DNA of 31,724 nt from Thermomicrobiales bacterium (GCA_038238655.1 JBBSFO010000001.1:1-31724), one strand, 5' to 3'; shown: positions 3,086-24,273, counted from the first letter of the stretch. Numbers and translations are program-made. Notes: a model not told the origin generated them from the sequence alone.

Positions 3086-3988
3086 TTGGATACCCATGAA
3101 TCGGGATTTGTCGTACGGGTGTGGGAGGAGCGGCGCGCCGATCGAAACGTGCGCGCGGTTTGGCGTTTGTCGGCAACGAATGTCAAAGGAAAAGCCGCCG
3201 TCTATTTCACGTCCATCTCGTCGTTGTGCGACTACCTCGCGCGGGAGTCGGGGGTGGAAATCACGTCCGCCCCCGTATTCGCGCCAATGATCGGAGAACA
3301 TCCGAATGGAACGGACGCACGATCGGATAGTGCTGGCACGGTCGTCCTTTTTCCGACGGACAGCCTGGGGGCGACGATGAACAGCCCGCTGGCACTCGCG
3401 GCGATGACCTTCATTCTCAAGGATTTGTTGGACAACCGAATCGTCCAGCGGGGGGTGACCGCAGACGTCGGGAGCGTTGCGATCACCGCGTTGCCACCCG
3501 ACCGTATCCCGACCGGGAGCGATGAACGGAGTCAACTCAACATCTTTTTGTATCGTGTCACACCGTACACTGCGTGGCGAAACAACGGATCGCTGTTGTC
3601 GGAACGCCGCGAGGACCGGCCCGCGCCGATGTGCCTCGATCTCCATTATCTCGTTTCGGCGTATGGCGAGCACGACTTTCATGCCGAGATATTGCTCGGC
3701 TACGCGATGCAGATTCTCCACGAGACGCCCATCCTTGCCCATGACGAGATCACCCGCGCGCTCGCGTCCATTGCGCCTACCGCAGGGAGCGCCTTACCGC
3801 CTGCATATCAGGCAATCGCTGGCGCGAATCCGGGCAACTCGCTGTCCGAGATTCATATCAGCCCCGAATTCCTCAATGCCGAAGAAACATCCAAACTCTG
3901 GTCCGCGTTGCAGGCTCGCTATCGCCCGTCGCTGACCTATAAGGTCTCGGCGGTGCTGATCGAAGCCGATCGGCCAGTCGCGCGGTGA
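3086..3988 (+). CDS. DUF4255/Pvc16-family CIS sheath terminator/cap protein #1, with a 97-aa N-terminal extension (alternative start ATG 3377)
   Basis: From ATG 3377: MNSPLALAAMTFILKDLLDN...ITALPPDRI...QLNIFLYRVTPYTAWRN...LDLHYLVSAYG...EILLGYAMQILHETPIL...KLWSALQARYRPSLTYKVSAVLIE is typical DUF4255. In-frame upstream TTG 3086 has AAGGAG at 3068-3073. Confidence 0.88.
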   Translation: MDTHESGFVVRVWEERRADRNVRAVWRLSATNVKGKAAVYFTSISSLCDYLARESGVEITSAPVFAPMIGEHPNGTDARSDSAGTVVLFPTDSLGATMNSPLALAAMTFILKDLLDNRIVQRGVTADVGSVAITALPPDRIPTGSDERSQLNIFLYRVTPYTAWRNNGSLLSERREDRPAPMCLDLHYLVSAYGEHDFHAEILLGYAMQILHETPILAHDEITRALASIAPTAGSALPPAYQAIAGANPGNSLSEIHISPEFLNAEETSKLWSALQARYRPSLTYKVSAVLIEADRPVAR

Positions 3989-6009
3989 GCGTCGCAATGC
4001 TCCGGCCGCACCAGCGGGTAGACTGGATCGCGTCGAACCAGCATTATCTGTATACGGCGATCGAGACGGTCCGCGCGTCATTGATCCGCCATTTTCGGCA
4101 CGACACCGACCAGGACGAAGCGGCGGCATTCGAGCGCGCGGCACGAGACCGTATGGAAGCGGCCGAGTTTGATATGCCCGCATCTTCCGCGTTGGCAACG
4201 CTCTGTCGTGCCTTCGCGCTGTCGCCGTTCGAGCGCGACATCGTTCTCTTTTGCGTGGGCGCGGAACTCGACGGAGGATTCCTGTCTACGTATGCAGCGC
4301 ACAGCGATGGCGCGCGACCGTTTCCGACCTTCGGCGCGGCAATCGCGGCATTCCCCGATGCGCATTGGGCTGCCCTCGCGCCCTCGTCGCCGCTCCGCTA
4401 TTGGCGGTTGATCCATATGGAAGCCGGACGGTCGCTCGTGGATAGTCCATTGCGCATTGACGAGAGCATCCTGCATTTCCTGATGGGTTTGCCGGAGTCG
4501 AATGCACACCTGCTCGAACTGGCGATGCCGCTTCACGGTATCGGCAAACTTGTGCCGTCGCATGCCGCGCTGGCGGAACAGATCGCGGAATGCTGGAGTG
4601 ACGAACAAACGCGCGCGCAGGCCGCGATTCAACTCGTCGGCGACGACCGCAGCGCGAAGCAGGGAATCGCCGCCGCCGCTTGTGCGATTGCCGGTTTCAA
4701 ACTCACCGTGATTGCTGCCGAGCACATGCCGCTCGAGTACAGCGAACTTGACACGCTCGCGCGCCTCTGCGAGCGGGAGGCAATCCTGAGGGGAACGACC
4801 GTACTACTGGATTGCGACAATCTCGATACCGCCGATGCGGTGCGTAATCATGCGGTCACGCGATTCATCGAAGACATGAACGCGCAACTGATCGTCGGTA
4901 GCCCGGACCGCCGCCGCCCCCGCGACCGGAGCTACACAACATTCGAAGTGGCACTGCCGACGCGCGACGAGCAACGCGGAATGTGGCACGCCGGCCTGGA
5001 CACAACGATCCCGCTGCTTTCCGGAGAGATTGATGCCCTTTCGACGCAGTTTCGGTTCGACGTACAGGAGATAGAGAGCATTTGTGCGGCAGTCGCGCAC
5101 GAATATCAGGCAATGGCGCGGGGTGCGGCGGGCGATGTCGGCCAGTTGCGGCGCACGCTCTGGGGAGCGTGCCGCATGCAGACCCGTAGCGGGATGGACG
5201 ACCTAGCGCAACGCATTGGGGTTGCTGCGACGTGGGAGGATTTCGTTCTGCCAGAGGCGCAAAAAGAGATTCTGCAAGAGATCGCCGCACATGTGCGCCA
5301 ACGCAGTCTCGTCTACGATACGTGGGGATTTGCCAACAAAGGGACACGCGGCCTCGGCGTCACGGCGCTTTTCGCGGGGGACAGCGGCACCGGCAAAACA
5401 ATGGCCGCCGAAGTGCTCGCGGGCGAACTCAACCTCGATCTCTATCGGATTGACCTGAGCGCTGTCGTCAGCAAATACATCGGCGAAACGGAAAAGAACC
5501 TGCGGCGCGTCTTCGATACCGCCGAAGGTGGCGGCGCGATCCTCTTATTCGATGAGGCGGACGCACTCTTCGGCAAGCGGAGCGAAGTGAAGGACAGCCA
5601 CGACCGCCACGCGAATATCGAAGTTTCGTACCTATTGCAGCGAATGGACGAGTATCGCGGCCTCGCGATCCTCACATCGAATCTCAAGAGTTCGCTCGAC
5701 CACGCATTCCTGCGGCGTATTCGATTCGTCGTACATTTTCCATTCCCGGACGCCGCGCACCGGGCGCAGATTTGGGCGCACATCTTTCCCGCCGAAACAC
5801 CGACCGAAGGGCTGGACCCGATGCGACTGGCCCAGTTGAACATCGCCGGTGGAAACATCCGTTCGATTGCCCTCCGTGCCGCATTCCTCGCTGCGGACAC
5901 GGGCGAACCGGTGCAAATGACGCATGTTTTGCGCGCCGCACGGAGCGAGTACAGCAAACTGGAAAAGCGTCTGACCGATGGGGAAACGCATGGTTGGCTT
6001 ACCGTCTAG
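3985..6009 (+). CDS. CIS-associated AAA+ ATPase (Afp15/Pvc15-like), 674 aa
   Basis: N-terminal FALSPFERDIVLFCVGAELD helical domain; degenerate first AAA module; Walker A GDSGTGKT; Walker B ILLFDEADALFGKRSEVKDSHDRHANIEVSYLLQRM, a signature of eCIS ATPases. GTGA start/stop overlap with the upstream gene. Confidence 0.95.
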   Translation: MSVAMLRPHQRVDWIASNQHYLYTAIETVRASLIRHFRHDTDQDEAAAFERAARDRMEAAEFDMPASSALATLCRAFALSPFERDIVLFCVGAELDGGFLSTYAAHSDGARPFPTFGAAIAAFPDAHWAALAPSSPLRYWRLIHMEAGRSLVDSPLRIDESILHFLMGLPESNAHLLELAMPLHGIGKLVPSHAALAEQIAECWSDEQTRAQAAIQLVGDDRSAKQGIAAAACAIAGFKLTVIAAEHMPLEYSELDTLARLCEREAILRGTTVLLDCDNLDTADAVRNHAVTRFIEDMNAQLIVGSPDRRRPRDRSYTTFEVALPTRDEQRGMWHAGLDTTIPLLSGEIDALSTQFRFDVQEIESICAAVAHEYQAMARGAAGDVGQLRRTLWGACRMQTRSGMDDLAQRIGVAATWEDFVLPEAQKEILQEIAAHVRQRSLVYDTWGFANKGTRGLGVTALFAGDSGTGKTMAAEVLAGELNLDLYRIDLSAVVSKYIGETEKNLRRVFDTAEGGGAILLFDEADALFGKRSEVKDSHDRHANIEVSYLLQRMDEYRGLAILTSNLKSSLDHAFLRRIRFVVHFPFPDAAHRAQIWAHIFPAETPTEGLDPMRLAQLNIAGGNIRSIALRAAFLAADTGEPVQMTHVLRAARSEYSKLEKRLTDGETHGWLTV

Positions 6010-6037
6010 GCCTGCGCCCGCCAAACGAGGGGGAACG

Positions 6038-7609
6038 ATGGAAGCGGTTGCCGAAGAGATTATCGGGGAGCACACCTATCTTGTCCTGGAGGACGAACAG
6101 CCCTTCGCCACGTCGCGGCTCTGGGAGCTGCAACGGCGCTACTTCGAGAGCATGGGCGTCGAGGCATGGCGTCGGGGCGAAGTGCCGCACTACGTGACCA
6201 GCAATCCGCGGATGGCCAATAGCTACGCGGAGATCGCCTTCGCCCTGTTTCGCGACCGGCAACGCCTGGCACCCATTGGCGAACCGTTGACGATTTGCGA
6301 ACTCGGCGCGGGGTCGGGGCGGTTCGCATTCCACTTTCTCAGCCGCCTCAATCGCCTGTGCGACGATGCGGCGGTTCCGCTCACCTCGTTCCGGTATGTC
6401 CTCACCGACCTCGCGCAGAGTAATCTCGATTTTTGGCGGGCGCACCCCCGCTTCCAACCATACTTCGACGTCGGTGTCCTCGACTACGCACGCTTCGACA
6501 TCACCGATTCATCTGCACTCACGATGGAGCAAAGCGGCAAGACGATCCGACCGGGCAGTCTGCAGCAGCCACTCATCGTGATCGCTAATTACGTATTCGA
6601 CAGTATCCCCCAGGACCTCTTCCACATTGACGAACATGCGGTCGAGGAATGTCTCATGACGATGGTCGTGCGCAAGGACGAGCAGACGGAGACGATCGCG
6701 GATCTCGTCGGCGCGCTGAAATGCAAACTAACGCAAAAGCCACTCGTGGAATCGCCGTACGACGAAGCGTATCTTCAGCGATTACTCGCGACGTATCGGG
6801 AAACGCTCGTGAATACTCATCTCCTGTTTCCCGCGACGGGGCTGCGCTGCGTGCGTCGCCTGCAGGATTTGTCCCAGGCAGGCGTCGTGCTGCTCTCCGC
6901 CGACAAAGGTGAGCATCACTTGTCCGCACTCCAAGGGCGACCGGCGCCGGGCCTCGTGCGCCACGGCGGTGCCTTTTCCATCTATGTGAATTACCACGCA
7001 TTCAAGGAAATGTGCGAACGCGGCGGAGGGATTGCATTGTTCCCGACTGCCCAATACCGCAGCGTAAACGTCTGCTGCCTGATTATGGTCGCGGACGCCG
7101 CCAGCCATCGCGATACCCGCAGCGCCTATCGGCGGTATGTGGAAGAGTTCGGCCCGGACGACTTTTTCAGCATCACGCGGACTGCGAACGAGCAGATCGG
7201 TGCGATGTCGGTGGAAAACATCGTCGCCTATCTCCGACTGAGTTACTACGACGGCCAGCAACTGTCGCGCTGCATCCCGCGATTGATCGAACTCGCGCCT
7301 GATTTCGGGGAGGGGGACCGCGACGCGGTACTCACCGCTGCCGAACAGGCATGGGAGTTGCAGTACCCGCTGGGCGAAGGACTCGATCTCGCCGGTCAGA
7401 TCGCCGGATTGTGCTACGCGCTCGCCGATCATGCGCGCGCCCTCACCTTTCTTCAGTATTCTATTGCGACCTACGGCGAAGAGCCGGGTACGCTCAGGAA
7501 CATGGCCCTGTGCTACCAACAACTCGGCGATAGCGAGCGGGCAGAACAGATTCTGGCATCACTCCCGTCGTCGGATGCGACGGAACAGAGCGGAACGACC
7601 GTCGCTTAA
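6038..7609 (+). CDS. SAM-dependent methyltransferase (MidA/NDUFAF7-like) with C-terminal TPR, about 523 aa
   Basis: YVTSNP, motif I ICELGAGSGRF, and IVIANYVFDSIPQD resembling the MidA NElfDalP motif; C-terminal TPR-like helices (HARALTFLQYSIATYGEEPGTLRNMALCYQQLGDSERAEQIL). ATG 6038 follows GAGGGGG. Confidence 0.8.
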   Translation: MEAVAEEIIGEHTYLVLEDEQPFATSRLWELQRRYFESMGVEAWRRGEVPHYVTSNPRMANSYAEIAFALFRDRQRLAPIGEPLTICELGAGSGRFAFHFLSRLNRLCDDAAVPLTSFRYVLTDLAQSNLDFWRAHPRFQPYFDVGVLDYARFDITDSSALTMEQSGKTIRPGSLQQPLIVIANYVFDSIPQDLFHIDEHAVEECLMTMVVRKDEQTETIADLVGALKCKLTQKPLVESPYDEAYLQRLLATYRETLVNTHLLFPATGLRCVRRLQDLSQAGVVLLSADKGEHHLSALQGRPAPGLVRHGGAFSIYVNYHAFKEMCERGGGIALFPTAQYRSVNVCCLIMVADAASHRDTRSAYRRYVEEFGPDDFFSITRTANEQIGAMSVENIVAYLRLSYYDGQQLSRCIPRLIELAPDFGEGDRDAVLTAAEQAWELQYPLGEGLDLAGQIAGLCYALADHARALTFLQYSIATYGEEPGTLRNMALCYQQLGDSERAEQILASLPSSDATEQSGTTVA

Positions 7610-7769
7610 TCGCGTCGCGCAAGGCGCTATGCATTGAAGCAACCGTACCGTATACTCGTCTCAGTACTGCGTGTGAACTGGGTCCATGAATACTACATCA
7701 GTCCAATACTGTTGTTTCGGGTGGAATACGCGAGGTAACCGTTCCGGTACGGCGCAATAAGGAGTCTGT

Positions 7770-15307: not shown

Positions 15308-15730
15308 ATGGTTGAGAACGGCTATCCGACGGCGCGTTTCTACATCGAAATTGATGGCGTCAATAACGCGGTTTTCACCGAGGCCGAGGGGCTTCAAATC
15401 GAGGTGGATATCACCGAGTACAAAGAAGGTGGCAGTAACGGTTTCGTCCATCGCCTGCCAGGCCGCGCCACGATCAGCAATTTAACGCTGAAGCGTGGCC
15501 TTGTCCAGTCGAACCAACTGTTCAAGTGGCAACTTGAGGTCGCGCAGGGCAAAGTTACGCGACGCAATGTGTCCGTCGTCATGTACGACCCGGCTGGGAT
15601 CGAAGTGCTCCGCTGGAACCTCATCAAAGCCTATCCGGTGCGGTGGATCGGTCCTGCATTTCGCGTCACCGACACAGTGATCGGCATCGAGACGCTCGAA
15701 CTTGCCCATGCCGGGCTAGAGATGGGATAG
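15308..15730 (+). CDS. Tail tube protein #3 (T4 gp19-like, Afp5-like position)
   Basis: RFYIEIDG...FTEAEGLQIEVDITEYKEGGSNGFVHRLPGRATISNLTLKRGL...RRNVSVVMYD...RWNLIKAYPVRWIGP...IETLELAHAGL. Confidence 0.95.
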   Translation: MVENGYPTARFYIEIDGVNNAVFTEAEGLQIEVDITEYKEGGSNGFVHRLPGRATISNLTLKRGLVQSNQLFKWQLEVAQGKVTRRNVSVVMYDPAGIEVLRWNLIKAYPVRWIGPAFRVTDTVIGIETLELAHAGLEMG

Positions 15731-15734
15731 GCGT

Positions 15735-18700
15735 ATGCTGCAAAGCGGATTCCTCGCCCATGCCGCACGTCAATCCAGATTCTCGCGATGGCTCGCCCAA
15801 CGCCAGGCAGTGTTGCTCCACCATCCGGCTCCCAGCTCACAGCGATCCTTTATCTCCCCTCGACCACTTTCGTCCGACCGAAGGGGCATGTATACGCCGC
15901 TGTACGCATTGCCACCCACCCAACCCTTGGACGCTCTCACACTCTTCGATGAACACGGATCAGCACCAAATTTCGACGATGAAACATTCGAAGGCGCGCC
16001 GGACTACCTCGATACGATTGTCGCGTCACGAGGTGACCCTTCATTCAATGATCCGCCCCCTCCCATTGGCGATCTGTCACAAGATACCGTGTCGGCGGCA
16101 TCGCCCGCCGTCGAGGTGATACAAAACGTTGTGTCCGCTGTTGCCACCCCAACCGATGTTGGTCGCACGCCGCCCACGAGACGCACGGCCCAGCATATGG
16201 ATGCGACAGGCACGCTGTCTGGTCGGCACATGCCCGATCCGCAACAATCGTCACCGTCCGGTGACGGGACAGCGCCGCGACCGATGTATGAGGTTGGCGA
16301 ACGATCCGGCAGCCGTAACGTCGTCGCTATGCATCCTCCCGAGTCGGATCGTGCTCTTCCATCTACACGCGAATTCACGCCTGATCGTGATACGTCGGCG
16401 TTACCCACCGGGGGGGCCGCCGGACAAGAGACGGGGTTATTCGAGCCGACAGGCGTCGTCGAGCCTATGCCGGGGTATCCGTTGTCAGGCGGCGCGGCAG
16501 ATGAAGAGCAGACGACTGCACCCCCCACAGCGAGCAGTGGCGACACTGCGATTCCGAGCACCGAACAACGCGTCGGCACTGCCGTAGGCTCACTGCCGCA
16601 CGAGAGACGTGATCGAAATCGAGCCGCGCCGCCGCCCGAGCGGCACAATGCGCGTGCGACCATGTCCACTGCGGAGGCACCTAGCATCGAGACGCCGTGG
16701 CAACACGCGCGCCGTGTGATCCGCGAGCGGCTATCGAGCAGAAGCGCCCGACCAACGCGTGCATCGTCGCAGGTGCCGCAATTGCGGGGCACAGAATCCC
16801 ACGGGTACGTCGCGCCACCGACAGCCGCGACCCCGCCGCCCTTCTTGCGTGGGGCGATGCAATCTCCAGATTTCGTTGTGCCGGTCTCGACGGTTCCGCC
16901 AGCCACTCTCGTATCCCCTACCCACGAACCAGGAAGTGAACGCGAGGATCGTGGAAACACGACAATGTCCGTGTCGGCGCAGAGCGGCGCGCCGTCGTCT
17001 GCAATTGCCTCCAGTCGCCGTACAGCCCTCCTCCGATCGGACGGGCGAATGCCAGACGTGCGCGACAACGGGCCATCTGCCGGCGAAACGCCGGTACCAG
17101 AGGAGTCACAATCTGTGGCGCGCGCCGAGCAACACCGGGCGCAGAACGCGGCGGCAACGACACCGACGATCGGCACCACGGTGTCGCCCGATTTGTCACG
17201 ACCGATTTCGCCATCACCGGAGTCCGAGGCTGCGGAAGACATCGCGGCCTCAATGAACACCCCCCGCAAACCAACGTTACAAACCGAGATTGACACAACC
17301 AATGGTGTTCTCCCGGCTGCGGAGGAAGCCCCGATCAATCCTGTCACGAGTGAGACTGTTGCGGCGAACCGAAGTGACGCAGATGACGGCACGGCCATAT
17401 TTGCCGTTCCCAATGGTCGTCCGCGCTACGACGCGGCACGCACCGTCGGCGAGACCACGACAGGACCGCCGTCGCACGTTGTACTACCGATTGCAATGGC
17501 CGCTGAACCCACGATACCAAACGATGTCGGGTCGCTCGTGCAGCCGCCTCTGGTTGAGCCGACCGCCCCAAAGTCGCTGTCTTCGCCGCCACTCGATCCA
17601 TCAAGTGCGCCGTCCGCCGTCGTGCGTGTCGAGCGCCCGATTGACAGCGCCTCTGGCGTTGCGACACAGCGATCCACTCCGATTTCACCACAGCAATCAC
17701 CGCTATCGTCGGCTACACCTGCAGAGTCGCAGACCGAACAGCAACGCGAGATCATGTCCCGATCTCCCGAGCAAACCGATCTCCTGGCGGATGCTTCGAT
17801 GCCGCCGCGCGCGCAACTGGCGGCAACGTCGTTGGCGCACGCCCCATCTCCGTCTCCTCCGCTATCGCACGTAGCCAGCGGCGTGGTCGGCGCGGTAACA
17901 ATCCAACCCGATCGGTCACCACAGGAAGTGGTGCAGAAGCAAACGCCGACGTCTCCGACCGATATACGTGCAGCCATCGGCGCGTGGCGGGTGCCCACCC
18001 CTCCCCACGTTGCGCGCACCGTGACCGCGTGGCTAACAGCGAAACCACGTTTCGGACGCGCGGCACAATCCGCACCGAATCAGTCCGCTGATCCAATCAG
18101 CGCGGCACCTCCTTCATCGCCAACCATCGAACAACGTGAGGCAGACATCCGCCGGCACGTCGCGCCTGCCGCGAGTCAGCAACCGGCACAAGCAACCGAT
18201 TCCCCGTCTGCGACACCAGACGGCACAACCATTCCCCCGCATGGGCCAACCGAAATGTCACATGCGTTCGAACAATCCATTGCAGAAGATGCCGAACCAG
18301 CGGGAACGGAACCGGCGATCACTGCGCTGGTCTACCCGTCCGGCCCGGATCGGCTCGGTAATTCTGAGGAACGACCCGCGTCATCGGCCACACGATTGCC
18401 GGATATTTCGGTCCAAGAGGATGTCATTTCCGATGCACCAGACGCTGCACGAATCGCGCCTGCCTCGATCGTGCAGTCCAGCGAAACCGCGCCGATACCG
18501 ACGCTCCCGACATCGGGACAAGAGTCGCCGACCCGTCGTCAATCAGCCCCCGTTCAGCCGCTGAATGTCGAAGTGATTGATGGGAGATCAATCCTCCCGG
18601 AGATTGCGGGGTCGCATCGCGTCCCTGACCCTGCGTCAGTCTCTGAGGCGACTAGCCCACGGGGATTACGTGGCGAATCCGTCTCCCAAATAGCCTTAAA

Positions 18701-21700
18701 CGACCTGCCCGTCGGCCAGTCGCCGACTGCAGCGTTCGAGCAGTCAGGACCCGAACTATCGCCGCCGTATCAATCGAGGCCACCGCAGCACGCTGCGGAT
18801 CAGATCAGTCCGATGCCGGCACCCACACAACCGCCGGTAAATCCATCGTCTCTGCGCATCCCACAGCCAGTGACTGCGTCGGAGCGCTCCACGGATTCGC
18901 CCCGGTCGGATTCGCACCACATCTTCTCCCCTACCAATGATTCCGACGTATCGGTCTCCGGTGCGTCGGGATCAGCCCTACCGAACGCGCCTATGGCGAG
19001 CAGTAGGCAATCGGCGGTAGTGGAGAGCCTCCCTGGCGGTATCTCGACGCCCTCCACACAACTTGGGTCCGGGCAGACGCCGGGACGCTCCAGCGTCCCA
19101 GATGCGATCACGAACCCCGTCGTGGTGCCACCGCTCGTCGCTCAGCCACCTTCGAGGCCTCCGGTGCCCCGAACGGAAACGACTCACCTGCAACCGTTTG
19201 TTTCGCCGGATAGTCCGCAAGGGTCACAGACGCGCGCGCCGTGGACGCAAGGCGCGGTGCGAGACGCAACGACGCAGTTTACGCCCGCCATCGCCGCACC
19301 AACCTCGCCCGACACAACGACCGATGCAGAGCGACCCGGAGAGAAGCCGGAACGATTGTCTGAGGTGGCATCTGCCGAGGTATTCCAGTCGGAGCGACCG
19401 CAGCCAACTACCGCTCGCCGCGATCTGTCTGGGCTGCAAGACGAATCTGACACCGCCGCGCCAGATTCGGTTTCGCCGCGAGATGATACGGGAATATCGG
19501 CTGCTATGTTGCCGAGAGAAACGCCAGAACCGTCCGTCACGATGCAAACGGTCGGGCAGGCGAAACAGCCCGCAATCGCACCGTACGAGATCGCAGACGA
19601 ATCACGTCGTCAACGGTCGGTCATCGGGGAACGACTGCCAGAATCACGTGACGATGCACCATCCCTTCCGAGCGTCTCACACCGTGAGGGCATGACTGTC
19701 GCACCGACAACTCCCGTGCTCTCGACCGAACTCCACGATGTCGCGGATGCGCCGCCGAGCGAGATCGCTACCCCCGCAAGTAGCGACGCATCGCGCGACG
19801 CCCGTCTGTCCGAGTCGTCGTTTACTGACACCGCCGACAGGACGGTTGTCACGCCGCACAATCCTGTCATCGCCGCGCCGATTATCGAGTCAACACAAGG
19901 AGCATCGCTCCCTGCACACAGAGCGTCCGCACGGCCACGATCCACCAACATTCTTGTCTCACTGCCAACATTTGACGAGTATGCCACGTCAAACGATCGG
20001 GCGGTCCCGACGTTAGGCTCCTCCGACCTCCGCGACCCGCCATCTGTTGCACCACCGGATTCTTCGATCACGGGGCGCATGATTGACGTAGACGCCACGT
20101 CGGCGCCGCTGATAGCGGCGGATCGGTCCGACACGATTATTCCTTCCCGGTCAGTCGAGCAGTCCCATGTCATGCCGAAGGAAACCGCCGAAAGCCGGAA
20201 TCCCTTTCCGTCTGATGTCGTACAGATGCCGTCCGAAGGGGACGGGGAGATGTTGGCGTTCCCCGACGAATCAGCGAAGAGCGGTTCACTTGATTCTCTC
20301 GCACATCCGGTACAATCGGCCCAACTGCGTAACCCTACAGAAACAGGCACGAATTCCCCTGCCCAGGCCACGGATTGGGAACGCGACGCAAACCAACCCG
20401 AGACACGGCTCGTGAACAGCGTTACCAACGATCACGACCGATCCAAAGCACCGGAAGCAGTGAACGTCAATCACCACGATGACACACCGCGCAATGCGAT
20501 TGCGCCGGTCGAAGGCGCAAGCACCAGCGCATCTCGTTCGGGTACACCGCAAACTGTGGAGGACACGGTACGCGGAGCGATGCCCGAGACGATCCAGATC
20601 GCCAGTGACGCTGCACAGACTTTGAGCGATTTCGGGGTGCCGCCGCTGACCGCACTGCATCAACCTGACAGCCTGCGCTCCGTCGAATCCGCACGCGCTT
20701 CAGTGGAACCGAACGACGCACCATCGCCAGACAACGCCATAGACGTGCAATCGGTTGAGCAGACGACGCCGATTCACGAGGTTCGCCAGGCGCGGCGACG
20801 ACCAATCATCGCCGCCCCGCCGCCCGTCCACGAAGACGCGACCACTTTTCCCGAGCCAACGGCCGAAGAGCGTGCGGCGAAGATTAACACGCTCAAACGA
20901 CTGCGACAGATGTATTCCGTCGAGCCGGACGACGCTCCAACCGAGATCGCGGAGATTGCGGATCCGGCGCCCACCGCACCTGTGCCCGAGGTGGCTGTGG
21001 CGGTGCGTCCCGTATTGGCCGCAGAGAATTCGATCATGCAGGACGAAACGCCGGTTCCTGCGCAGGGATCGTCGCCGGCCACACAACCGGAACCGACTCC
21101 GGGTTACTCCGGTGGCCGTGACAGGGCGCCGACCCCTCTGTCGCTGCCTGAATCCGCCCATCGGTTTCTCCGGCCACTCGTCGGATTCGACACACGCACC
21201 GTACCGATCTACCGCGACACCGCTGCGGACCACGTGACGACAGCGCACAATGCCGATGCCGTGACAGATGGCTACGCGGTCGTGATGGCGTCGTCCAACA
21301 CTGCCTTAGACCGACCAGAGACGCTCGGCTTGCTCGCGCACGAGTTCACGCATGTCGCCCGGCGTCAACAAGCCCGATTCGTCCCACCGATTGCGCGGCC
21401 CGCGCGCCCGCAAGCCCAAACGGCGCAACGCAGCGTGCGCGAGGACCGGATTGTGGCGTCGCTCGCGGAGGAGGCGCTCGCCCAACGCGTCGAAGATCGC
21501 GTCGTACAAGCGGCACGAGCCGCCACAGTACATCCATCTCCGCCCCCGACGCAGGCCGTGACAACACCGCGCGCGGAATCGCCACGCGCGGCATCAGCGC
21601 CGCGCTCACCGACTGCGCACGAACGGTGGGCTGGCCTGCCCGCGCCGTGGGAACCGATAAACGATTGGACACAGCACGGACCGTCCGGTCAGGCAACGAC

Positions 21701-21920
21701 TCCTGTCGAGTCACCAGGGAAGACGGCTGCCGTTGCAAACCCTGAACCGGTCGTGCAGCGCGCACTGCGGGAGCGATCGCAAACGGGCCCAGATGAAAAC
21801 GACACGCCGCCGAATGGACGCGACGCATATGCCCCGGAAGCCGACCTCGACGCGCTAGCGCGACAGGTCTATGCGATTTTGAAAGACCGCCTTTCTGTCG
21901 AACGACGACGGATGGGATAA
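15735..21920 (+). CDS. 2061-aa Pro/Ser/Thr/Ala-rich, likely disordered protein with C-terminal DUF4157-like domain and conserved helical tail
   Basis: Single uninterrupted ORF between tube #3 and the tube-initiator-LysM gene. C-terminal LPESAHRFLRPLVGFD...ADAVTDG...ETLGLLAHEFTHVARRQ (HExxH at 21339-21353), WAGLPAPWEP, VVQRA and DLDALARQVYAILKDRLSVERRRMG. Confidence 0.85.
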   Translation: MLQSGFLAHAARQSRFSRWLAQRQAVLLHHPAPSSQRSFISPRPLSSDRRGMYTPLYALPPTQPLDALTLFDEHGSAPNFDDETFEGAPDYLDTIVASRGDPSFNDPPPPIGDLSQDTVSAASPAVEVIQNVVSAVATPTDVGRTPPTRRTAQHMDATGTLSGRHMPDPQQSSPSGDGTAPRPMYEVGERSGSRNVVAMHPPESDRALPSTREFTPDRDTSALPTGGAAGQETGLFEPTGVVEPMPGYPLSGGAADEEQTTAPPTASSGDTAIPSTEQRVGTAVGSLPHERRDRNRAAPPPERHNARATMSTAEAPSIETPWQHARRVIRERLSSRSARPTRASSQVPQLRGTESHGYVAPPTAATPPPFLRGAMQSPDFVVPVSTVPPATLVSPTHEPGSEREDRGNTTMSVSAQSGAPSSAIASSRRTALLRSDGRMPDVRDNGPSAGETPVPEESQSVARAEQHRAQNAAATTPTIGTTVSPDLSRPISPSPESEAAEDIAASMNTPRKPTLQTEIDTTNGVLPAAEEAPINPVTSETVAANRSDADDGTAIFAVPNGRPRYDAARTVGETTTGPPSHVVLPIAMAAEPTIPNDVGSLVQPPLVEPTAPKSLSSPPLDPSSAPSAVVRVERPIDSASGVATQRSTPISPQQSPLSSATPAESQTEQQREIMSRSPEQTDLLADASMPPRAQLAATSLAHAPSPSPPLSHVASGVVGAVTIQPDRSPQEVVQKQTPTSPTDIRAAIGAWRVPTPPHVARTVTAWLTAKPRFGRAAQSAPNQSADPISAAPPSSPTIEQREADIRRHVAPAASQQPAQATDSPSATPDGTTIPPHGPTEMSHAFEQSIAEDAEPAGTEPAITALVYPSGPDRLGNSEERPASSATRLPDISVQEDVISDAPDAARIAPASIVQSSETAPIPTLPTSGQESPTRRQSAPVQPLNVEVIDGRSILPEIAGSHRVPDPASVSEATSPRGLRGESVSQIALNDLPVGQSPTAAFEQSGPELSPPYQSRPPQHAADQISPMPAPTQPPVNPSSLRIPQPVTASERSTDSPRSDSHHIFSPTNDSDVSVSGASGSALPNAPMASSRQSAVVESLPGGISTPSTQLGSGQTPGRSSVPDAITNPVVVPPLVAQPPSRPPVPRTETTHLQPFVSPDSPQGSQTRAPWTQGAVRDATTQFTPAIAAPTSPDTTTDAERPGEKPERLSEVASAEVFQSERPQPTTARRDLSGLQDESDTAAPDSVSPRDDTGISAAMLPRETPEPSVTMQTVGQAKQPAIAPYEIADESRRQRSVIGERLPESRDDAPSLPSVSHREGMTVAPTTPVLSTELHDVADAPPSEIATPASSDASRDARLSESSFTDTADRTVVTPHNPVIAAPIIESTQGASLPAHRASARPRSTNILVSLPTFDEYATSNDRAVPTLGSSDLRDPPSVAPPDSSITGRMIDVDATSAPLIAADRSDTIIPSRSVEQSHVMPKETAESRNPFPSDVVQMPSEGDGEMLAFPDESAKSGSLDSLAHPVQSAQLRNPTETGTNSPAQATDWERDANQPETRLVNSVTNDHDRSKAPEAVNVNHHDDTPRNAIAPVEGASTSASRSGTPQTVEDTVRGAMPETIQIASDAAQTLSDFGVPPLTALHQPDSLRSVESARASVEPNDAPSPDNAIDVQSVEQTTPIHEVRQARRRPIIAAPPPVHEDATTFPEPTAEERAAKINTLKRLRQMYSVEPDDAPTEIAEIADPAPTAPVPEVAVAVRPVLAAENSIMQDETPVPAQGSSPATQPEPTPGYSGGRDRAPTPLSLPESAHRFLRPLVGFDTRTVPIYRDTAADHVTTAHNADAVTDGYAVVMASSNTALDRPETLGLLAHEFTHVARRQQARFVPPIARPARPQAQTAQRSVREDRIVASLAEEALAQRVEDRVVQAARAATVHPSPPPTQAVTTPRAESPRAASAPRSPTAHERWAGLPAPWEPINDWTQHGPSGQATTPVESPGKTAAVANPEPVVQRALRERSQTGPDENDTPPNGRDAYAPEADLDALARQVYAILKDRLSVERRRMG

Positions 21921-21938
21921 TGCGTTGGGAGGGTGAGA

Positions 21939-22598
21939 ATGGTTGAGAAGGCTTCGATCACGAACGTCGATGCCGGCGGCGCGGCGATTGAGTGCATGTT
22001 TAATCCGACGGAATACACATTCTACAAGCAGAACCGGATTTCGTTCACCGAAGTGCCGGGGAACAGCATCCCCATTCCTGATTTCCGCAGTGGCGATCCG
22101 GCGACAATGAAATTGCAGTTGTTCTTCGACACGTACGAGGCCGCAGACAGCGCGAAAGACGTGCGCAAGCACACCGACGCGATCTGGAACCTGATGGCCG
22201 TCGAGGAAAATACAAAGGACGGAAAAACCGGCAAAGGGCGACCACCAATCGTCCATTTCCAATGGGGGCGAACTTGGTCCTTCGATGCGATGATCAGCGA
22301 CATCTCGCAGCGATTTACCCTCTTCCTCACCGATGGCACGCCCGTCCGCGCGACGCTCGATGTCACGTTTCAGCAGGTGAAGGACGGCAAGCTGTTTCCG
22401 AAACAAAACCCGACATCCGGCGGCACCGGCGGCGAACGGCAGTGGGTCGTGCAGGAAGGTGACACGCTCTCACTCATTGCCTATCGCATGTACGGCGACA
22501 CGAATCAGTGGCGTCAGATCGCGGCAGCGAACCGACTGACCCGCGTGAGAAGACTGCAACCAGGTACGGTGTTGGAGATCCCCAATGGCGCAAAATAG
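21939..22598 (+). CDS. CIS tube-initiator protein with LysM domain (Afp7-like)
   Basis: IECMFNPTEYTFYKQN...LQLFFDTYE...PPIVHFQWG...ISQRFTLFLTDGTPVRATLDVTFQQ; LysM WVVQEGDTLSLIAYRMYGDTNQWRQIAAANRL. GGAGG 6 nt before ATG 21939. Confidence 0.95.
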   Translation: MVEKASITNVDAGGAAIECMFNPTEYTFYKQNRISFTEVPGNSIPIPDFRSGDPATMKLQLFFDTYEAADSAKDVRKHTDAIWNLMAVEENTKDGKTGKGRPPIVHFQWGRTWSFDAMISDISQRFTLFLTDGTPVRATLDVTFQQVKDGKLFPKQNPTSGGTGGERQWVVQEGDTLSLIAYRMYGDTNQWRQIAAANRLTRVRRLQPGTVLEIPNGAK

Positions 22599-24273
22599 CC
22601 TCAGTCCGCTTCACTGGTATGTCAAAGTGGACGGTCAGGAAATATCGTCTACCATCTTGGACTGCCTGACAAAAATAACGGTGGAAAGTAGTCTGAATAT
22701 CCCGGCGGTTGCCGCGCTTTATCTCAATCCCCCGCCCCTCAATCACGATCCGCTGTCGTGGATTGACACCGTACAGTTTGATCCGGGGAAAAAACTGACG
22801 ATCTCCGTCGGAGAGGGAGCGACTATCACAGCGTTATTTGACGGGGAGATCGTCGAACTCGAGCCTTCGTTCGGATCAGACGGAAACCGGTTAGTTGTTC
22901 GCGCATTCGACTTGCTCCATCGGCTCTCGCGCGGTCGCAAGGTAAAGTCATTTGCCAATATGACCGACAAGGATATTATCTCTGCCGTACTGTCGAACCA
23001 TCAGATGACCTTCAACTACAGTAATAGCAAGGGGCCAGGACAGGTCCATGAGCAGGTTATGCAAAATAGTCAGACCGACCTTGATTTTGTGCGCACCCGT
23101 GCCGCGACCATCGGCTGTCATTGCTTCGCGGTCGGGGCGAAAGTGCATTGTGTTGCGCCTGTGCAACAAACGGCAGTCTTGATGATCGATCAGTCATCGC
23201 TCCTTTCGTTCCGTCCCCGATTGACAACGACCGATCAGGTGAGCAAAGTGACGGTTCGCGGTTGGAAGGAAAAGACGAAGGAGGATGTCGTCGGCACATT
23301 CGAGGGGAGCGGGGTCAAAAATACGGTAAAAGTGAGTGGCAAGAATGGCGCGGCATTCGCCGCCGCCGCCCCCGGTGGCGGTCAGGAACACCTCGTCACC
23401 GACTGGGTTGTGGACGACCAGGCACAGGCGCAATACATCGCTGAAGCCCTCGCAACCAGCGTCAGCGGGCGCTTCGTTCAGGCCGAAGGAATCACGTATG
23501 GCGCCCCCCAGATCGTCGCCGGTGCGTGGATCGAGATTAAGAATGTTGGACGATACAGTGGAACGTACTTTGTCACGAATGCCTTGCATCACTTCGATGC
23601 CCGCAGTGGCTACGAAACGGAATACACGATTTCCGGTCACGATCCAACGACACTGCTCCATTTGCTCAGTAGTGAGTCGAACGACGCTGCACGCACGGGT
23701 TTGCAGGTCGGCGTCGTCACTGAAGTAGACCCCAAACTGGCAAAGGCGAAGGTTCGCCTCCCGCATCTCGGCGATACAGCGGTCACCAATTGGGCACGAA
23801 TCGCCGCAGTGGGCGCTGGGGCCAATCGTGGCATCCAATTTTTGCCGGAAGTGGGCGATGAGGTAATTATCGGGTTCGATCGGGGGGATGTGAACTTTCC
23901 GTTCATTCTCGGTGGCCTGTGGAACGGGACGGACACACCGCCCACACAAGTTGCACTCGAATCAACAAAGGTCGCGGCGCGTGTTATCCAATCGCGCACA
24001 GGCCACGTCATCACCTTCGAAGATAAGGAAGACGGCGGGGCAATTACAATCAAAGATAAGGCGGGGGGAACGATCACCCTGAGCGCGAAGGATAAATCCA
24101 TCACCATCGAGTCGAAGAAGGATATTATCGTCAAAGCCACGGGTGACCTGACGATGTCCGGCATCAATCTCAGTATCCAAGGTACCAAGGGCGTGGACAT
24201 CAAGGGGCCGCAAGTCAAGATCAATGGCGATGCGCAGGTGGAAATCAAGGGTGGTCTGGTCAAGATCAACTGA
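22585..24273 (+). CDS. vgrG: VgrG-like central spike (Afp8-like; gp27-like hub + gp5 OB-fold + short beta-helix)
   Basis: QNSQTDLDFVRTRA; GVVTEVDPKLAKAKVRLPHL...TNWARIAAVGAGANRGIQFLPEVGDEVIIGFDRGDVNFPFILGGLWNG; SRTGHVITFEDK. No C-terminal effector extension. Confidence 0.95.
   Translation: MAQNSLSPLHWYVKVDGQEISSTILDCLTKITVESSLNIPAVAALYLNPPPLNHDPLSWIDTVQFDPGKKLTISVGEGATITALFDGEIVELEPSFGSDGNRLVVRAFDLLHRLSRGRKVKSFANMTDKDIISAVLSNHQMTFNYSNSKGPGQVHEQVMQNSQTDLDFVRTRAATIGCHCFAVGAKVHCVAPVQQTAVLMIDQSSLLSFRPRLTTTDQVSKVTVRGWKEKTKEDVVGTFEGSGVKNTVKVSGKNGAAFAAAAPGGGQEHLVTDWVVDDQAQAQYIAEALATSVSGRFVQAEGITYGAPQIVAGAWIEIKNVGRYSGTYFVTNALHHFDARSGYETEYTISGHDPTTLLHLLSSESNDAARTGLQVGVVTEVDPKLAKAKVRLPHLGDTAVTNWARIAAVGAGANRGIQFLPEVGDEVIIGFDRGDVNFPFILGGLWNGTDTPPTQVALESTKVAARVIQSRTGHVITFEDKEDGGAITIKDKAGGTITLSAKDKSITIESKKDIIVKATGDLTMSGINLSIQGTKGVDIKGPQVKINGDAQVEIKGGLVKIN

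What the first reader, a model, noticed from the sequence alone, without database searches (positions are those of the whole stretch)
15735..21920. 2061-aa cysteine-free disordered protein in the tape-measure position, and a natural kinase substrate
Seen: about 1800 aa dominated by P/S/T/A/D/E/R with many SP/TP dipeptides, no Cys found in the whole translation, and no clear tandem repeat. Short amphipathic islands punctuate it (N-terminal FLAHAARQSRFSRWLAQRQ; TPWQHARRVIRERL at about 16692; AEERAAKINTLKRLRQMY at about 20862; WAGLPAPWEP), followed by DUF4157 and the docking-like tail. Established: Afp14-type tape measures are largely helical and set particle length. Inference: an unfolded ruler, lumen filler or tether. 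Its Thr-rich chain is the obvious substrate for the operonic kinase, which would create pThr sites for the baseplate FHA.
Basis: partly seen in the sequence, partly recalled or inferred. Interest (0 to 1): 0.72.

Follow-up and report, generated by a model that had tools for sequence, protein, structure and literature searches.

The report
Giant disordered core protein of injection machine
A real 2061-residue, cysteine-free, almost wholly unstructured protein sits where phage tails encode their length ruler in a Chloroflexota injection-machine gene cluster. It is the longest member found of a widespread, uncharacterised family with conserved ends and a free-drifting middle, and nothing in the sequence supports the idea that it is a kinase substrate.

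Summary
Window 15735-21920 (+) is one genuine gene of 2061 aa with no Cys, rich in P/A/S/T, without repeats or TM helices. Its only Pfam domain is DUF4157/eCIS_core, at residues 1804-1880.

It belongs to a large family: at least 438 clusters at 50% identity, seen in Chloroflexota, Acidobacteriota, Gemmatimonadota, Deinococcota and, more distantly, Actinomycetota. The family always occupies the slot tube / chaperone-like gene / tube / X / LysM tube-initiator / spike.

The architecture is a basic N-terminal helix, an acidic disordered spacer, a gluzincin-like DUF4157 module with invariant HExxH...E, a WGGLPAPWEP motif and a terminal amphipathic helix. Only the ends are conserved. In the nearest relative, neighbouring proteins are 83-94% identical, yet the roughly 1650-aa middle cannot be aligned although its length is kept (1952 vs 2061 aa). 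The typical family length is about 700 aa, and this protein is the longest found.

Best reading (0.5): a hub-anchored thread lying in the tube lumen, in the tape-measure slot, for which length and composition matter rather than sequence. A true disordered ruler is possible (0.25).

The kinase-substrate idea finds no support. S/T-P and T-x-x-[ILVD] counts match shuffled sequence, and the family also occurs in loci without the FHA domain or kinase.

It is a new variant of a known kind (DUF4157 cargo/Tme-like proteins).

The parts
15735..21920 (+). Whole gene: 2061-aa Cys-free DUF4157 (eCIS core domain) protein; its start lies 4 nt after the stop of the upstream tube gene
15735..15824 (+). Conserved basic N-terminal helix (aa 1-30; family motif about R-R-x-L-x-x-R-L-x-R-x-x-x-L-A-x-W-L-x-x-R-x-x-L). 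Aa 1-69 is the only part outside the C-terminal module that still aligns to the nearest relative (35% identity)
15825..20801 (+). About 1660-aa acidic P/S/T/A-rich disordered spacer. No repeats, no TM helix and no detectable similarity even to the same-genus orthologue. GC3 is 0.60-0.63 against about 0.72 in neighbouring genes
20778..20915 (+). Pre-domain island (EVRQARRRP ... AEERAAKINTLKRLRQMY, aa 1682-1727), partly conserved in relatives (W-I-E-R-L-R-R-A-E type)
21129..21539 (+). DUF4157 plus the following helix, forming a minimal gluzincin-like metallopeptidase fold. H1869, E1870, H1873, E1913 and E1920 are invariant in 25 sequences from four phyla. AF2 pLDDT is about 95
21627..21656 (+). 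WAGLPAPWEP motif (family consensus WGGLPAPWEP; L, P, P and W invariant)
21837..21917 (+). Terminal amphipathic helix (DLDALARQVYAILKDRLSVERRRMG), pLDDT about 94. It is conserved in every position-equivalent protein examined, including one without DUF4157 (L047), and in diverged form in four Streptomyces loci
14632..15075 (+). Conserved 147-aa gene two genes upstream with a C-terminal CPxCG zinc-ribbon-like motif. It matches PHROG 508 'tail assembly chaperone' and is the candidate chaperone of the big protein
15308..15730 (+). Third gp19-type tube gene (Afp5/Cis1b-like), immediately upstream and probably translationally coupled
21933..22598 (+). CIS_tube + LysM tube initiator (Afp7-like), immediately downstream, followed by the VgrG-like spike at 22585-24273

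Best explanation
This is a genuine single gene for the conserved central DUF4157 protein of a Streptomyces-like (subtype IId-like) contractile injection system in an uncultured Chloroflexota (Thermomicrobiales-like) bacterium.

What is shown:
- It occupies the slot that phage and pyocin tail clusters give to the tape measure. The order is tube, chaperone-like gene, tube, this gene, tube initiator, spike.
- It has a conserved basic N-terminal helix.
- It has a conserved C-terminal module of about 265 aa: a gluzincin-like DUF4157 with invariant HExxH...E, a WGGLPAPWEP motif and a terminal amphipathic helix.
- Between the ends lies a spacer that keeps its composition (P/A/S/T, net acidic, no Cys, almost no Lys or aromatics). 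Within sub-clades it also keeps its length, but not its sequence.

What is inferred:
- The protein is built into the particle as an unfolded thread lying in the tube lumen.
- Its C-terminal module and helix dock at the tube-initiator/spike hub, as tape-measure C-termini and the DUF4157 proteins Tme and Sle2 do.
- The acidic, Cys-free chain fills or lines the lumen. It may double as the disordered 'loading sequence' that the cluster's AAA+ ATPase recognises, and it is expelled on contraction.
- The zincin module may process the chain or act after ejection.
- The 2061-aa form is the extreme of a length range of about 600-2061 aa. It arose in the common ancestor of this genome and its nearest relative (about 1952 aa).
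For: - Locus identity and order: Pfam.
- The chaperone-like neighbour matches PHROG 508 in 18/18 orthologues, best E 1.5e-11.
- The same gene order with the same kind of protein is found in loci from Chloroflexota, Acidobacteriota, Gemmatimonadota, Deinococcota, Dormibacteria and Streptomyces.
- In all 150 best family representatives the module ends at the protein's C-terminus, and 438 clusters score E <= 1e-30.
- There are 11 Cys in 97,234 family residues.
- The ends are conserved and the middle is not. Against the nearest relative G010, afp7 is 94%, gp25 93%, kinase 87% and tube 83% identical. The C-terminal module is 49% identical, aa 1-69 are 35% identical, and the rest is unalignable at protein and DNA level. 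Lengths are 2061 vs 1952 aa.
- Members with an intact basic N-terminus cluster in length: median 704 aa, IQR 660-812.
- The spacer's net acidity is a family trait, 5.5 +/- 2.7 per 100 aa.
- Structure: DUF4157 core and terminal helix have pLDDT about 95. The N-terminal 1200 aa have pLDDT 33.
- The zincin fold matches best the VgrG2b effector domain, Z 8.2.
- Literature. AlgoCIS DUF4157 cargos sit in the tube lumen, and their disordered N-terminal domains are the loading signal (PMC8894135; bioRxiv 10.64898/2026.05.27.728243). Tme co-purifies with spike and tube initiator (PMC11126660). Sle2 binds the Afp5-like tube initiator (PMC13277306).
Against: - There is no direct evidence that the protein is in particles, in the lumen or hub-bound. 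All localisation is by analogy.
- In studied DUF4157 cargos a folded effector domain follows DUF4157. Here only about 180 mostly low-confidence residues follow.
- In Tme the DUF4157 is N-terminal, not C-terminal.
- Deleting Cgo1/2 or Sle1/2 does not disturb particle assembly, so a structural role is not implied by the domain.
- Codon bias is weaker than in neighbouring genes (GC3 0.63 vs about 0.72), which is compatible with weak constraint.
- The nearest relative's copy carries an in-frame stop, so dispensability cannot be excluded.
Confidence: 0.5

Rival explanations
1. It is the true length ruler of this CIS lineage: an intrinsically disordered, extended (polyproline-II-like) tape measure. 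It is chaperoned by the PHROG-508-like protein, anchored at the hub by its C-terminal helix, and read out at the distal end through its N-terminal helix. On this reading the 2061-aa form builds particles about 2-3 times longer than the roughly 700-1000-aa forms.
For: - Phage-type slot and chaperone-like neighbour.
- It is the largest ORF of the cluster.
- No canonical tape measure was found by Pfam or PHROGs in the window, nor downstream of the kinase in two relatives with longer contigs.
- Both ends are conserved and the middle varies only in length.
- Length clusters in the family (IQR 660-812) and is kept between G000 and G010 despite total sequence turnover.
- Streptomyces loci carry a position-equivalent 761-918-aa protein. 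Published CIS-Sc particles are uniform at 268 nm, with 'no tape measure gene' recognised (PMC12237407).
Against: - Every characterised tape measure, in phages and in Afp14/Alg14, has a mainly alpha-helical centre. Here Pro occurs every 5-7 residues and no helix is predicted.
- There is no sequence similarity to any tape-measure family.
- Same-genus loci with 55-77% identical structural proteins differ more than two-fold in length (880-1009 vs 1952-2061 aa).
- A flexible chain is a poor ruler unless it is stretched.
- Particle lengths are unknown for every carrier.
Confidence: 0.25
2. It is simply a cargo/effector of the Cgo type. The long disordered N-terminal part is only a loading signal and spacer, and the DUF4157 zincin with its short C-terminal tail is the delivered activity. 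It has no role in assembly.
For: - The architecture of disordered NTD then DUF4157 then CTD matches the general model for DUF4157 cargos (bioRxiv 10.64898/2026.05.27.728243; PMC8213781 notes linkers over 1000 aa).
- The catalytic-type residues HExxH...E are invariant.
- The fold is closest to the VgrG2b metallopeptidase effector domain.
- Cys avoidance fits a protein translocated unfolded.
Against: - Effectors in eCIS loci are variable 'cloud' genes at operon ends. This gene is a fixed core gene in a fixed central position across at least five phyla, with a conserved C-terminal helix.
- One position-equivalent protein has lost DUF4157 but kept size, composition and terminal helix (L047).
- The window has two other DUF4157 genes of the usual effector type, with N-terminal DUF4157 and a variable C-terminus, at 7770-10145 and from 31168.
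Confidence: 0.2
3. One reading: the Thr/Ser-rich chain is the physiological substrate of the operon's Ser/Thr kinase (28080-30992). Its phospho-threonines would be read by the FHA domain fused to baseplate protein gpI (27175-28083), or by the kinase's own FHA. This would couple phosphorylation to assembly, docking or firing.
For: - The kinase and the FHA::gpI fusion are in the same operon and co-occur with the family in most Chloroflexota, Acidobacteriota and Gemmatimonadota loci.
- The chain offers 180 Thr and 229 Ser in accessible disordered sequence.
- This copy is in the upper tail of the family for S and T content.
Against: - There is no motif enrichment. S/T-P is 58 vs 50.7 +/- 5.8, and T-x-x-[ILVD] is 29 vs 32.1 +/- 4.5 in shuffles.
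- No conserved Thr exists outside the zincin core.
- The Thr difference between loci with and without the kinase is within one SD, and those loci are related.
- The family exists with the same character where gpI has no FHA and no kinase was found.
- If the chain is enclosed in the tube, a baseplate-periphery FHA could not reach it after assembly.
Confidence: 0.1
4. It is not a functional gene: an assembly chimera, or a decaying pseudogene whose long open frame is kept by composition.
For: - GC3 is lower than in neighbouring genes.
- The middle is unalignable to relatives.
- There is an in-frame stop in the G010 orthologue and frameshifts in two nanopore MAG copies.
Against: - A second assembler reproduces the whole stretch with 0 differences, and a second sample holds identical pieces.
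- 2061 codons without a stop, with conserved modules at both ends in the same frame.
- Hundreds of family clusters show the same architecture.
- Family-wide exclusion of Cys and a conserved net charge indicate selection.
Confidence: 0.02

Closest known systems
Tme (BN159_7576), tape-measure-related effector of the Streptomyces davawensis CIS (PMC11126660)
   Same: It is the largest ORF of its CIS cluster and lies immediately upstream of the tube-initiator/spike genes. It contains DUF4157 and is about 70% predicted disordered. Its size is similar (2247 vs 2061 aa). Tme co-purifies with spike and tube initiator.
   Different: In Tme the DUF4157 is at the N-terminal region, whereas here it is at aa 1804-1880 of 2061. 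Tme has predicted TM helices, coiled coils, remote tape-measure homology and a C-terminal EndA-like nuclease. None of these was found here. This protein ends in a short conserved helix instead of an effector domain.
Cgo1/Cgo2, DUF4157 cargo proteins of AlgoCIS (PMC8894135; bioRxiv 10.64898/2026.05.27.728243)
   Same: The domain order is disordered N-terminal region, then DUF4157, then a C-terminal part. The Cgo proteins sit in the tube lumen, and their disordered NTD is the loading signal, dependent on the AAA+ ATPase. An AAA+ gene is present here at 3985-6009.
   Different: The Cgo NTDs are short and their CTDs are large folded effector domains. The Cgo genes are accessory genes, not in the tube-to-hub slot. 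AlgoCIS has a separate helical tape measure (Alg14), and none is recognisable here.
Phage and eCIS tape measure proteins (lambda gpH, T4 gp29, P2 gpT, Afp14, Alg14)
   Same: Shared features are gene position relative to tube, chaperone and hub genes (phage order), being the largest ORF, conserved ends with a length-variable middle, and a chaperone-like gene upstream.
   Different: The centre is not helical and no sequence homology was detected. Control of particle length by this protein is untested.
Sle2 (SLIV_17110), small DUF4157 adaptor of the Streptomyces lividans SLP (PMC13277306)
   Same: It is a DUF4157 protein that binds the Afp5-like tube initiator. Here the Afp5-like tube gene is the immediately upstream, probably translationally coupled neighbour.
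   Different: Sle2 is small, is encoded upstream of the sheath next to a helical tape-measure-like effector (Sle1), and has no giant disordered region.
CIS-Sc of Streptomyces coelicolor (subtype IId; PMC10066040, PMC12237407)
   Same: The core gene order is the same. Four Streptomyces loci fetched here carry a position-equivalent 761-918-aa P/A-rich, Cys-poor DUF4157 protein with a related C-terminal helix. CIS-Sc particles are uniform in length although no tape measure gene is recognised.
   Different: In Streptomyces the DUF4157 lies mid-protein and the gene sits one tube gene earlier. Those loci have no FHA::gpI or kinase. I did not verify which S. coelicolor gene corresponds.

Membership tests
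DUF4157 / eCIS core domain proteins (PF13699) | Pfam PF13699 match above the gathering score | tested here: met
   48.5 bits against a cut-off of 22, aa 1804-1880, profile positions 2-78 of 79
DUF4157 / eCIS core domain proteins (PF13699) | HExxH zinc-binding motif in a zincin-like fold | tested here: met
   HEFTH at aa 1869-1873. H, E and H plus two downstream Glu are invariant in 25 sequences. The model matches zincins, best VgrG2b effector domain 6h56_B with Z 8.2, rmsd 7.8 A and 111 aligned residues. Z is moderate, but the list of matches is consistently zincins.
DUF4157 / eCIS core domain proteins (PF13699) | Encoded inside a contractile injection system locus | tested here: met
   Sheath, three gp19 tube genes, CIS_tube-LysM, VgrG, PAAR, gp25, Baseplate_J, P2_I, two Pvc16_N genes and an AAA gene lie in the same window
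Tape measure proteins (phage TMP, Afp14/Alg14) | Gene between tube/assembly-chaperone genes and baseplate-hub genes (phage order) | tested here: met
   The order is tube, PHROG-508-like gene, tube, this gene, LysM tube initiator, spike. It is conserved in more than 25 loci. In Afp-type eCIS the tape measure gene lies after the baseplate genes instead.
Tape measure proteins (phage TMP, Afp14/Alg14) | Predominantly alpha-helical / coiled-coil central region | tested here: not met
   There are 275 Pro at a median spacing of 5. The longest Pro-free run in aa 31-1790 is 26 residues. AF2 predicts no helices in aa 1-1200 apart from one 5-residue helix.
Tape measure proteins (phage TMP, Afp14/Alg14) | Sequence similarity to a tape measure family | tested here: inconclusive
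   No TMP family appears in Pfam (E <= 0.01), PHROGs (E <= 1) or NCBIfam (E <= 0.1). TMPs are notoriously divergent, so absence is weak evidence.
Tape measure proteins (phage TMP, Afp14/Alg14) | Protein length sets particle length | not testable with these tools
   No particle length is known for any carrier. This needs electron microscopy of length mutants.
Tme-like effectors (as defined in PMC11126660) | Relatively longest ORF of the cluster with conserved synteny upstream of baseplate genes | tested here: met
   2061 aa against the next largest at 970 aa; directly upstream of the tube initiator
Tme-like effectors (as defined in PMC11126660) | DUF4157 at the N-terminal region | tested here: not met
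   The domain is at aa 1804-1880 of 2061. In all 150 best family representatives the module is C-terminal.
Tme-like effectors (as defined in PMC11126660) | TM helices / coiled coils and a C-terminal effector (nuclease) domain | tested here: not met
   The KD-19 maximum is 1.27. There is no further Pfam domain. The C-terminus is a 25-aa helix.
Cgo-type DUF4157 cargo | Disordered N-terminal region preceding DUF4157 | tested here: met
   here it is extreme, at about 1800 aa
Cgo-type DUF4157 cargo | Folded variable effector domain after DUF4157 | tested here: not met
   Only about 180 aa follow. Apart from two helices their pLDDT is below 50, and the segment is conserved rather than variable.
Cgo-type DUF4157 cargo | Located in the tube lumen of purified particles | not testable with these tools
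   Needs mass spectrometry and cryo-EM of particles
Hanks-kinase substrate / FHA ligand | Phospho-acceptor motifs enriched or conserved, and obligate co-occurrence with kinase and FHA | tested here: not met
   Motif counts match shuffles. There is no conserved Thr outside the zincin core. The family is present in loci without FHA or kinase. Actual phosphorylation is not testable here.

The most novel reading that the evidence does not exclude
This family may be the missing tape measure of the Streptomyces-type (IId-like) contractile injection systems. It would be an intrinsically disordered, proline-rich, acidic ruler, held extended in the tube and handled by a zinc-ribbon tail-assembly-chaperone homologue. 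Selection would act on chain length and composition rather than sequence. On this reading the 2061-aa form specifies unusually long particles. It would be the first non-helical tape measure known.
Probability: 0.25. Interest if true: 0.8.

Novelty: new variant of a known kind. Interest (0 to 1): 0.5.

Why it matters
DUF4157 is the least understood 'core' domain of extracellular and cytoplasmic contractile injection systems. In addition, the Streptomyces-type systems make particles of uniform length although no tape measure gene has been recognised (PMC12237407).

This analysis defines a large, cross-phylum family that always sits in the phage tape-measure slot behind a chaperone-like gene. It has conserved docking-type ends and a sequence-free, Cys-free, acidic spacer whose length ranges from about 600 to 2061 residues.

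That gives a concrete, testable candidate for how these machines are measured, filled or loaded. It also offers a natural series of length variants for the test. For engineering, a sequence-tolerant luminal spacer with defined end signals would be a useful handle for cargo loading.

The kinase-substrate idea would add a regulatory layer, but for now it rests on gene proximity only.

Tried and rejected
- A complex prediction of the C-terminal module with the Afp5-like tube protein and the LysM tube initiator (alignments A2-A4) gave no verdict. The score was 0.22 against a mark of 0.32. This is no evidence either way.
- PDB sequence searches with the C-terminal module profile and with the last 62 aa found nothing.
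- Foldseek against the PDB gave no hit at E <= 0.001, only weak zincins.
- No tape measure family appeared in Pfam, PHROGs or NCBIfam for this protein or for the G007 orthologue.
- The 791-aa DUF4157 protein gave only an E = 0.1 hit to a tape measure PHROG. This is not significant.
- The Uversky charge-hydropathy plot was borderline and uninformative for this low-charge, Pro-rich chain.
- TRF and self-BLAST found no repeats, so the doubling of length cannot be traced to a recent duplication.
- A search of 100 Streptomyces genomes with the L058 protein at E <= 1e-20 returned only the query itself. The threshold or candidate cap was too strict, so it says nothing about distribution.
- No RNA holder was listed among public runs.
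- An earlier-findings look-up by sequence found nothing.
- The closest C-terminal-module relative (67% identity) lies in the unpublished genome G005, on a contig that cuts the gene. No claim here rests on it.
- I did not establish which S. coelicolor gene corresponds to the Streptomyces equivalents.

Full report
**1. What is there**

The window is a whole 31.7-kb contig of a fragmented metagenome-assembled genome (969 contigs, 91% complete). Named close homologues come from Thermomicrobiales and other Chloroflexota MAGs.

It encodes a complete contractile injection system:
- a BTAD regulator;
- two Pvc16_N cap-type proteins;
- an AAA+ ATPase and a methyltransferase/TPR protein;
- a 791-aa protein with an N-terminal DUF4157;
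- the sheath and three gp19-type tube genes;
- the target gene;
- a CIS_tube-LysM tube initiator, a VgrG-like spike, PAAR, gp25 and Baseplate_J;
- an FHA::P2_I fusion and a Pkinase-FHA-Ig protein.

A third DUF4157 gene is cut by the contig end at 31168-31722.

The target ORF 15735-21920 (+) gives 2061 residues with no Cys. Composition is P 13.3, A 12.9, S 11.1 and T 8.7 %. Its start lies 4 nt after the stop of the third tube gene. Its only Pfam domain is PF13699 (DUF4157, now named 'eCIS core domain') at aa 1804-1880.

**2. Is it real**

A 2061-codon open frame at 62% GC cannot arise by chance. An independently assembled contig of the probable source run covers 15200-22400 without a single difference. 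A second sample of the same study holds identical pieces along the ORF.

GC3 (0.63) is lower than in neighbouring genes (about 0.72), and GC2 is high because of Pro, Ala, Ser, Thr and Arg codons. This points to weak codon selection, not to a wrong frame. The conserved N-terminal and C-terminal modules are in this frame here and in all relatives.

**3.

All quoted peptides are at the stated places. There is no tandem or dispersed internal repeat.

The chain cannot form long helices:
- Pro occurs at a median spacing of 5 residues.
- The longest Pro-free run between aa 31 and 1790 is 26 residues.
- No TM segment is predicted.
- AlphaFold2 on aa 1-1200 gives pLDDT 33 with essentially no secondary structure. 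This was a single-sequence run, so it is supportive rather than conclusive.

The 'many SP/TP' are what the composition predicts: 58 against 50.7 +/- 5.8. The FHA-favoured T-x-x-[ILVD] pattern also matches, at 29 against 32.1 +/- 4.5.

**4. The family**

Searching related genomes and a species-level genome collection recovered the same gene in the same place. The order is sheath, tube, a conserved gene of about 125-147 aa, tube, X, LysM tube initiator, spike, (PAAR), gp25, gpJ, gpI.

This order is found in Chloroflexota (Thermomicrobiales, Ktedonobacterales, Chloroflexia, Roseiflexus) and in Acidobacteriota (Terriglobia, Pyrinomonadaceae, Vicinamibacterales). It is also found in Gemmatimonadota, Deinococcota, Dormibacteria and, in a more diverged form, Streptomyces.

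A profile of the C-terminal module (alignment A2, 25 sequences) finds 438 clusters at E <= 1e-30 among 1.84 billion representatives. In all 150 best hits the module ends at the protein's C-terminus.

The architecture has six parts:
- (i) A basic N-terminal helix, consensus roughly RRxLxxRLxRxxxLAxWLxxRxxL.
- (ii) A P/A/S/T-rich spacer, net acidic by about 5 charges per 100 aa (family 5.5 +/- 2.7).
- (iii) A short helical island before the domain.
- (iv) DUF4157 plus a following helix. H1869, E1870, H1873, E1913 and E1920 are invariant. The module is modelled at pLDDT about 95. It aligns with zincin metallopeptidases, best the VgrG2b effector domain at Z 8.2. The same resemblance has been reported for other CIS cargos (PMC13266070).
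- (v) An invariant WGGLPAPWEP-type motif.
- (vi) A terminal amphipathic helix, DLDALARQVYxILKxRLxxERRRxG, at pLDDT about 94.

Cys is almost excluded from the whole family, with 11 in 97,234 residues. This includes the folded zincin part.

The terminal helix persists even in a position-equivalent 1405-aa protein that has lost DUF4157 (L047). It also persists as '...YDRLRSRIRQELLIDRERAG...' in Streptomyces and Dormibacteria.

**5. Evolution of the spacer**

The nearest relative (G010, same genus) has neighbouring proteins 83-94% identical to the window's, and flanking DNA 75-77% identical. Within the target, only aa 1-69 (35%) and the C-terminal module (49%) align. The roughly 1650-aa middle is undetectable by BLASTP or BLASTN.

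Total length is nevertheless retained: 1952 aa in G010 (interrupted by one in-frame stop) against 2061 aa here. Other members of the genus have 880-1009 aa.

Across the family, members with an intact basic N-terminus have a median of 704 aa (IQR 660-812). Long outliers are 1280-1824 aa. The window's protein is the longest found.

The spacer therefore behaves as a sequence-free element on which composition, charge, Cys avoidance and probably length are selected.

**6. The neighbour**

The 147-aa gene at 14632-15075 is conserved in all loci and ends in a CPxCG zinc-ribbon-like motif. All 18 orthologues match PHROG 508 'tail assembly chaperone', best E 1.5e-11.

In phages such chaperones are encoded before the tape measure and act on it. 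This is the strongest independent support for calling the target's position a tape-measure slot.

No canonical tape measure was found in the window, nor downstream of the kinase in two relatives with longer contigs. There the next gene is a 1721-aa protein with N-terminal DUF4157. That is the Tme-like architecture, and probably the full form of the window's truncated last gene.

**7. Mechanism**

Three facts are published:
- DUF4157 cargos of AlgoCIS lie in the tube lumen. Their disordered N-terminal regions are the loading signal and need the AAA+ ATPase (PMC8894135; bioRxiv 10.64898/2026.05.27.728243).
- The giant, largely disordered DUF4157 protein Tme co-purifies with the spike and tube initiator (PMC11126660).
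- The small DUF4157 protein Sle2 binds the Afp5-like tube initiator (PMC13277306).

Combined with the anatomy above, the most likely picture (confidence 0.5) is a hub-anchored luminal thread:
- The C-terminal module and helix dock at the tube-initiator/spike hub.
- The tube polymerises around the unfolded, acidic, Cys-free chain.
- The chain is expelled on firing.
- The zincin may process the chain or act afterwards.

All localisation steps are inference.

Whether the chain also measures the tube (0.25) cannot be decided here. Position, chaperone, conserved ends, length clustering and the lack of any other ruler argue for it. So does the fact that CIS-Sc particles are uniformly 268 nm without a recognised tape measure gene (PMC12237407). 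The complete absence of helical character argues against, as do the more than two-fold length differences within one genus.

A rough capacity estimate is my own arithmetic, assuming a 4-nm lumen and 134 cubic angstroms per residue. It shows that three to six copies of a 2061-aa chain would fit into a tube of CIS-Sc length. A longer protein therefore need not mean a longer particle.

**8. The kinase idea**

The FHA::gpI fusion and the kinase are real, and they co-occur with the family in most non-actinobacterial loci. However:
- No motif is enriched.
- There is no conserved Thr outside the zincin.
- Thr content differs by less than one SD between loci with and without the kinase.
- The family exists unchanged where FHA and kinase are missing.

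The idea is not excluded (0.1), but it is proximity-based only.

**9. Comparison and novelty**

The protein is a certified DUF4157/eCIS-core-domain protein. It fails defining features of:
- Tme-like effectors: N-terminal DUF4157, TM helices and a nuclease domain;
- Cgo-type cargo: a folded variable C-terminal domain;
- canonical tape measures: a helical centre.

It shares position with Tme and tape measures, and the order 'disordered region then DUF4157' with Cgo cargo.

I found no paper describing this C-terminal-module family, its conserved termini or its chaperone-like neighbour. General statements that DUF4157 proteins have disordered N-terminal regions and long linkers do exist (PMC8213781; bioRxiv 10.64898/2026.05.27.728243).

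I therefore class it as a new variant of a known kind, of moderate interest. Interest would be high if the disordered-ruler reading proves true.

**10. Caveats**

- The closest C-terminal-module relative is in an unpublished genome (G005) and was not used for any claim.
- Related genomes are not independent samples.
- Several MAG copies carry stops or frameshifts that may be sequencing errors.
- Disorder rests on composition and one single-sequence AlphaFold2 run.
- The complex prediction gave no verdict.

Noticed in passing
window 14632-15075 (+): A conserved 147-aa gene between two tube genes ends in a CPxCG zinc-ribbon-like motif. It and all 17 orthologues tested match PHROG 508 'tail assembly chaperone', and Pfam has no family for it. 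A chaperone homologue in a CIS cluster said to lack a tape measure deserves its own look.
   Followed up: partly
L021 (G010:C48) 8215-14100 (-), stop at 9238-9240: The nearest relative's orthologue is split by a single in-frame stop into 1620 + 331 aa, about 1952 aa in total. This could be a sequencing error, a nonsense mutation or read-through; it was not resolved.
   Followed up: no
window 31168-31722 (+), and L069 (G007:C121) 3448-8613 (+): The window's last gene is cut by the contig end and starts with a DUF4157 domain. In relative G007 the gene after the kinase is a 1721-aa protein with N-terminal DUF4157 (the Tme-like architecture), followed by C39-like peptidase membrane proteins.
   Followed up: partly
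L047 5885-10102 (+) (Chloroflexi bacterium isolate 7): The position-equivalent 1405-aa protein has no DUF4157 or HExxH but keeps the terminal helix (72% identical over 25 aa). The terminal helix, not the zincin, therefore seems to be the constant of this locus position.
   Followed up: partly
L051, L058, L059, L062 (Streptomyces loci), about 8.8-11.6 kb in each: Typical Streptomyces CIS loci carry a 761-918-aa P/A-rich, Cys-poor protein between tube genes, behind the same chaperone-like gene. DUF4157 lies mid-chain and the C-terminus reads '...YDRLRSRIRQELLIDRERAG...'. Published CIS-Sc work states that a tape measure gene is absent.
   Followed up: partly
window 7770-10145 (+): A 791-aa Cys-free protein with N-terminal DUF4157 lies upstream of the sheath. 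It gave a non-significant (E 0.1) hit to a tape-measure PHROG. Its position and build recall the Sle1/Sle2 effector pair of S. lividans.
   Followed up: no
L025 8448-10885 and L027 8659-10900: In two MAGs with MFD isolate labels (probably long-read assemblies) the orthologue is split by a frameshift into two overlapping ORFs (524+314 aa and 315+436 aa). This is probably homopolymer error, and gene callers will under-report the family's length in such assemblies.
   Followed up: no
window 15735-21920: Lys is nearly excluded (0.6%, against R 7.7%) and aromatics are about 2% in the spacer. The spacer is net acidic while the first 60 aa are strongly basic. This charge polarity is conserved across the family.
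   Followed up: partly
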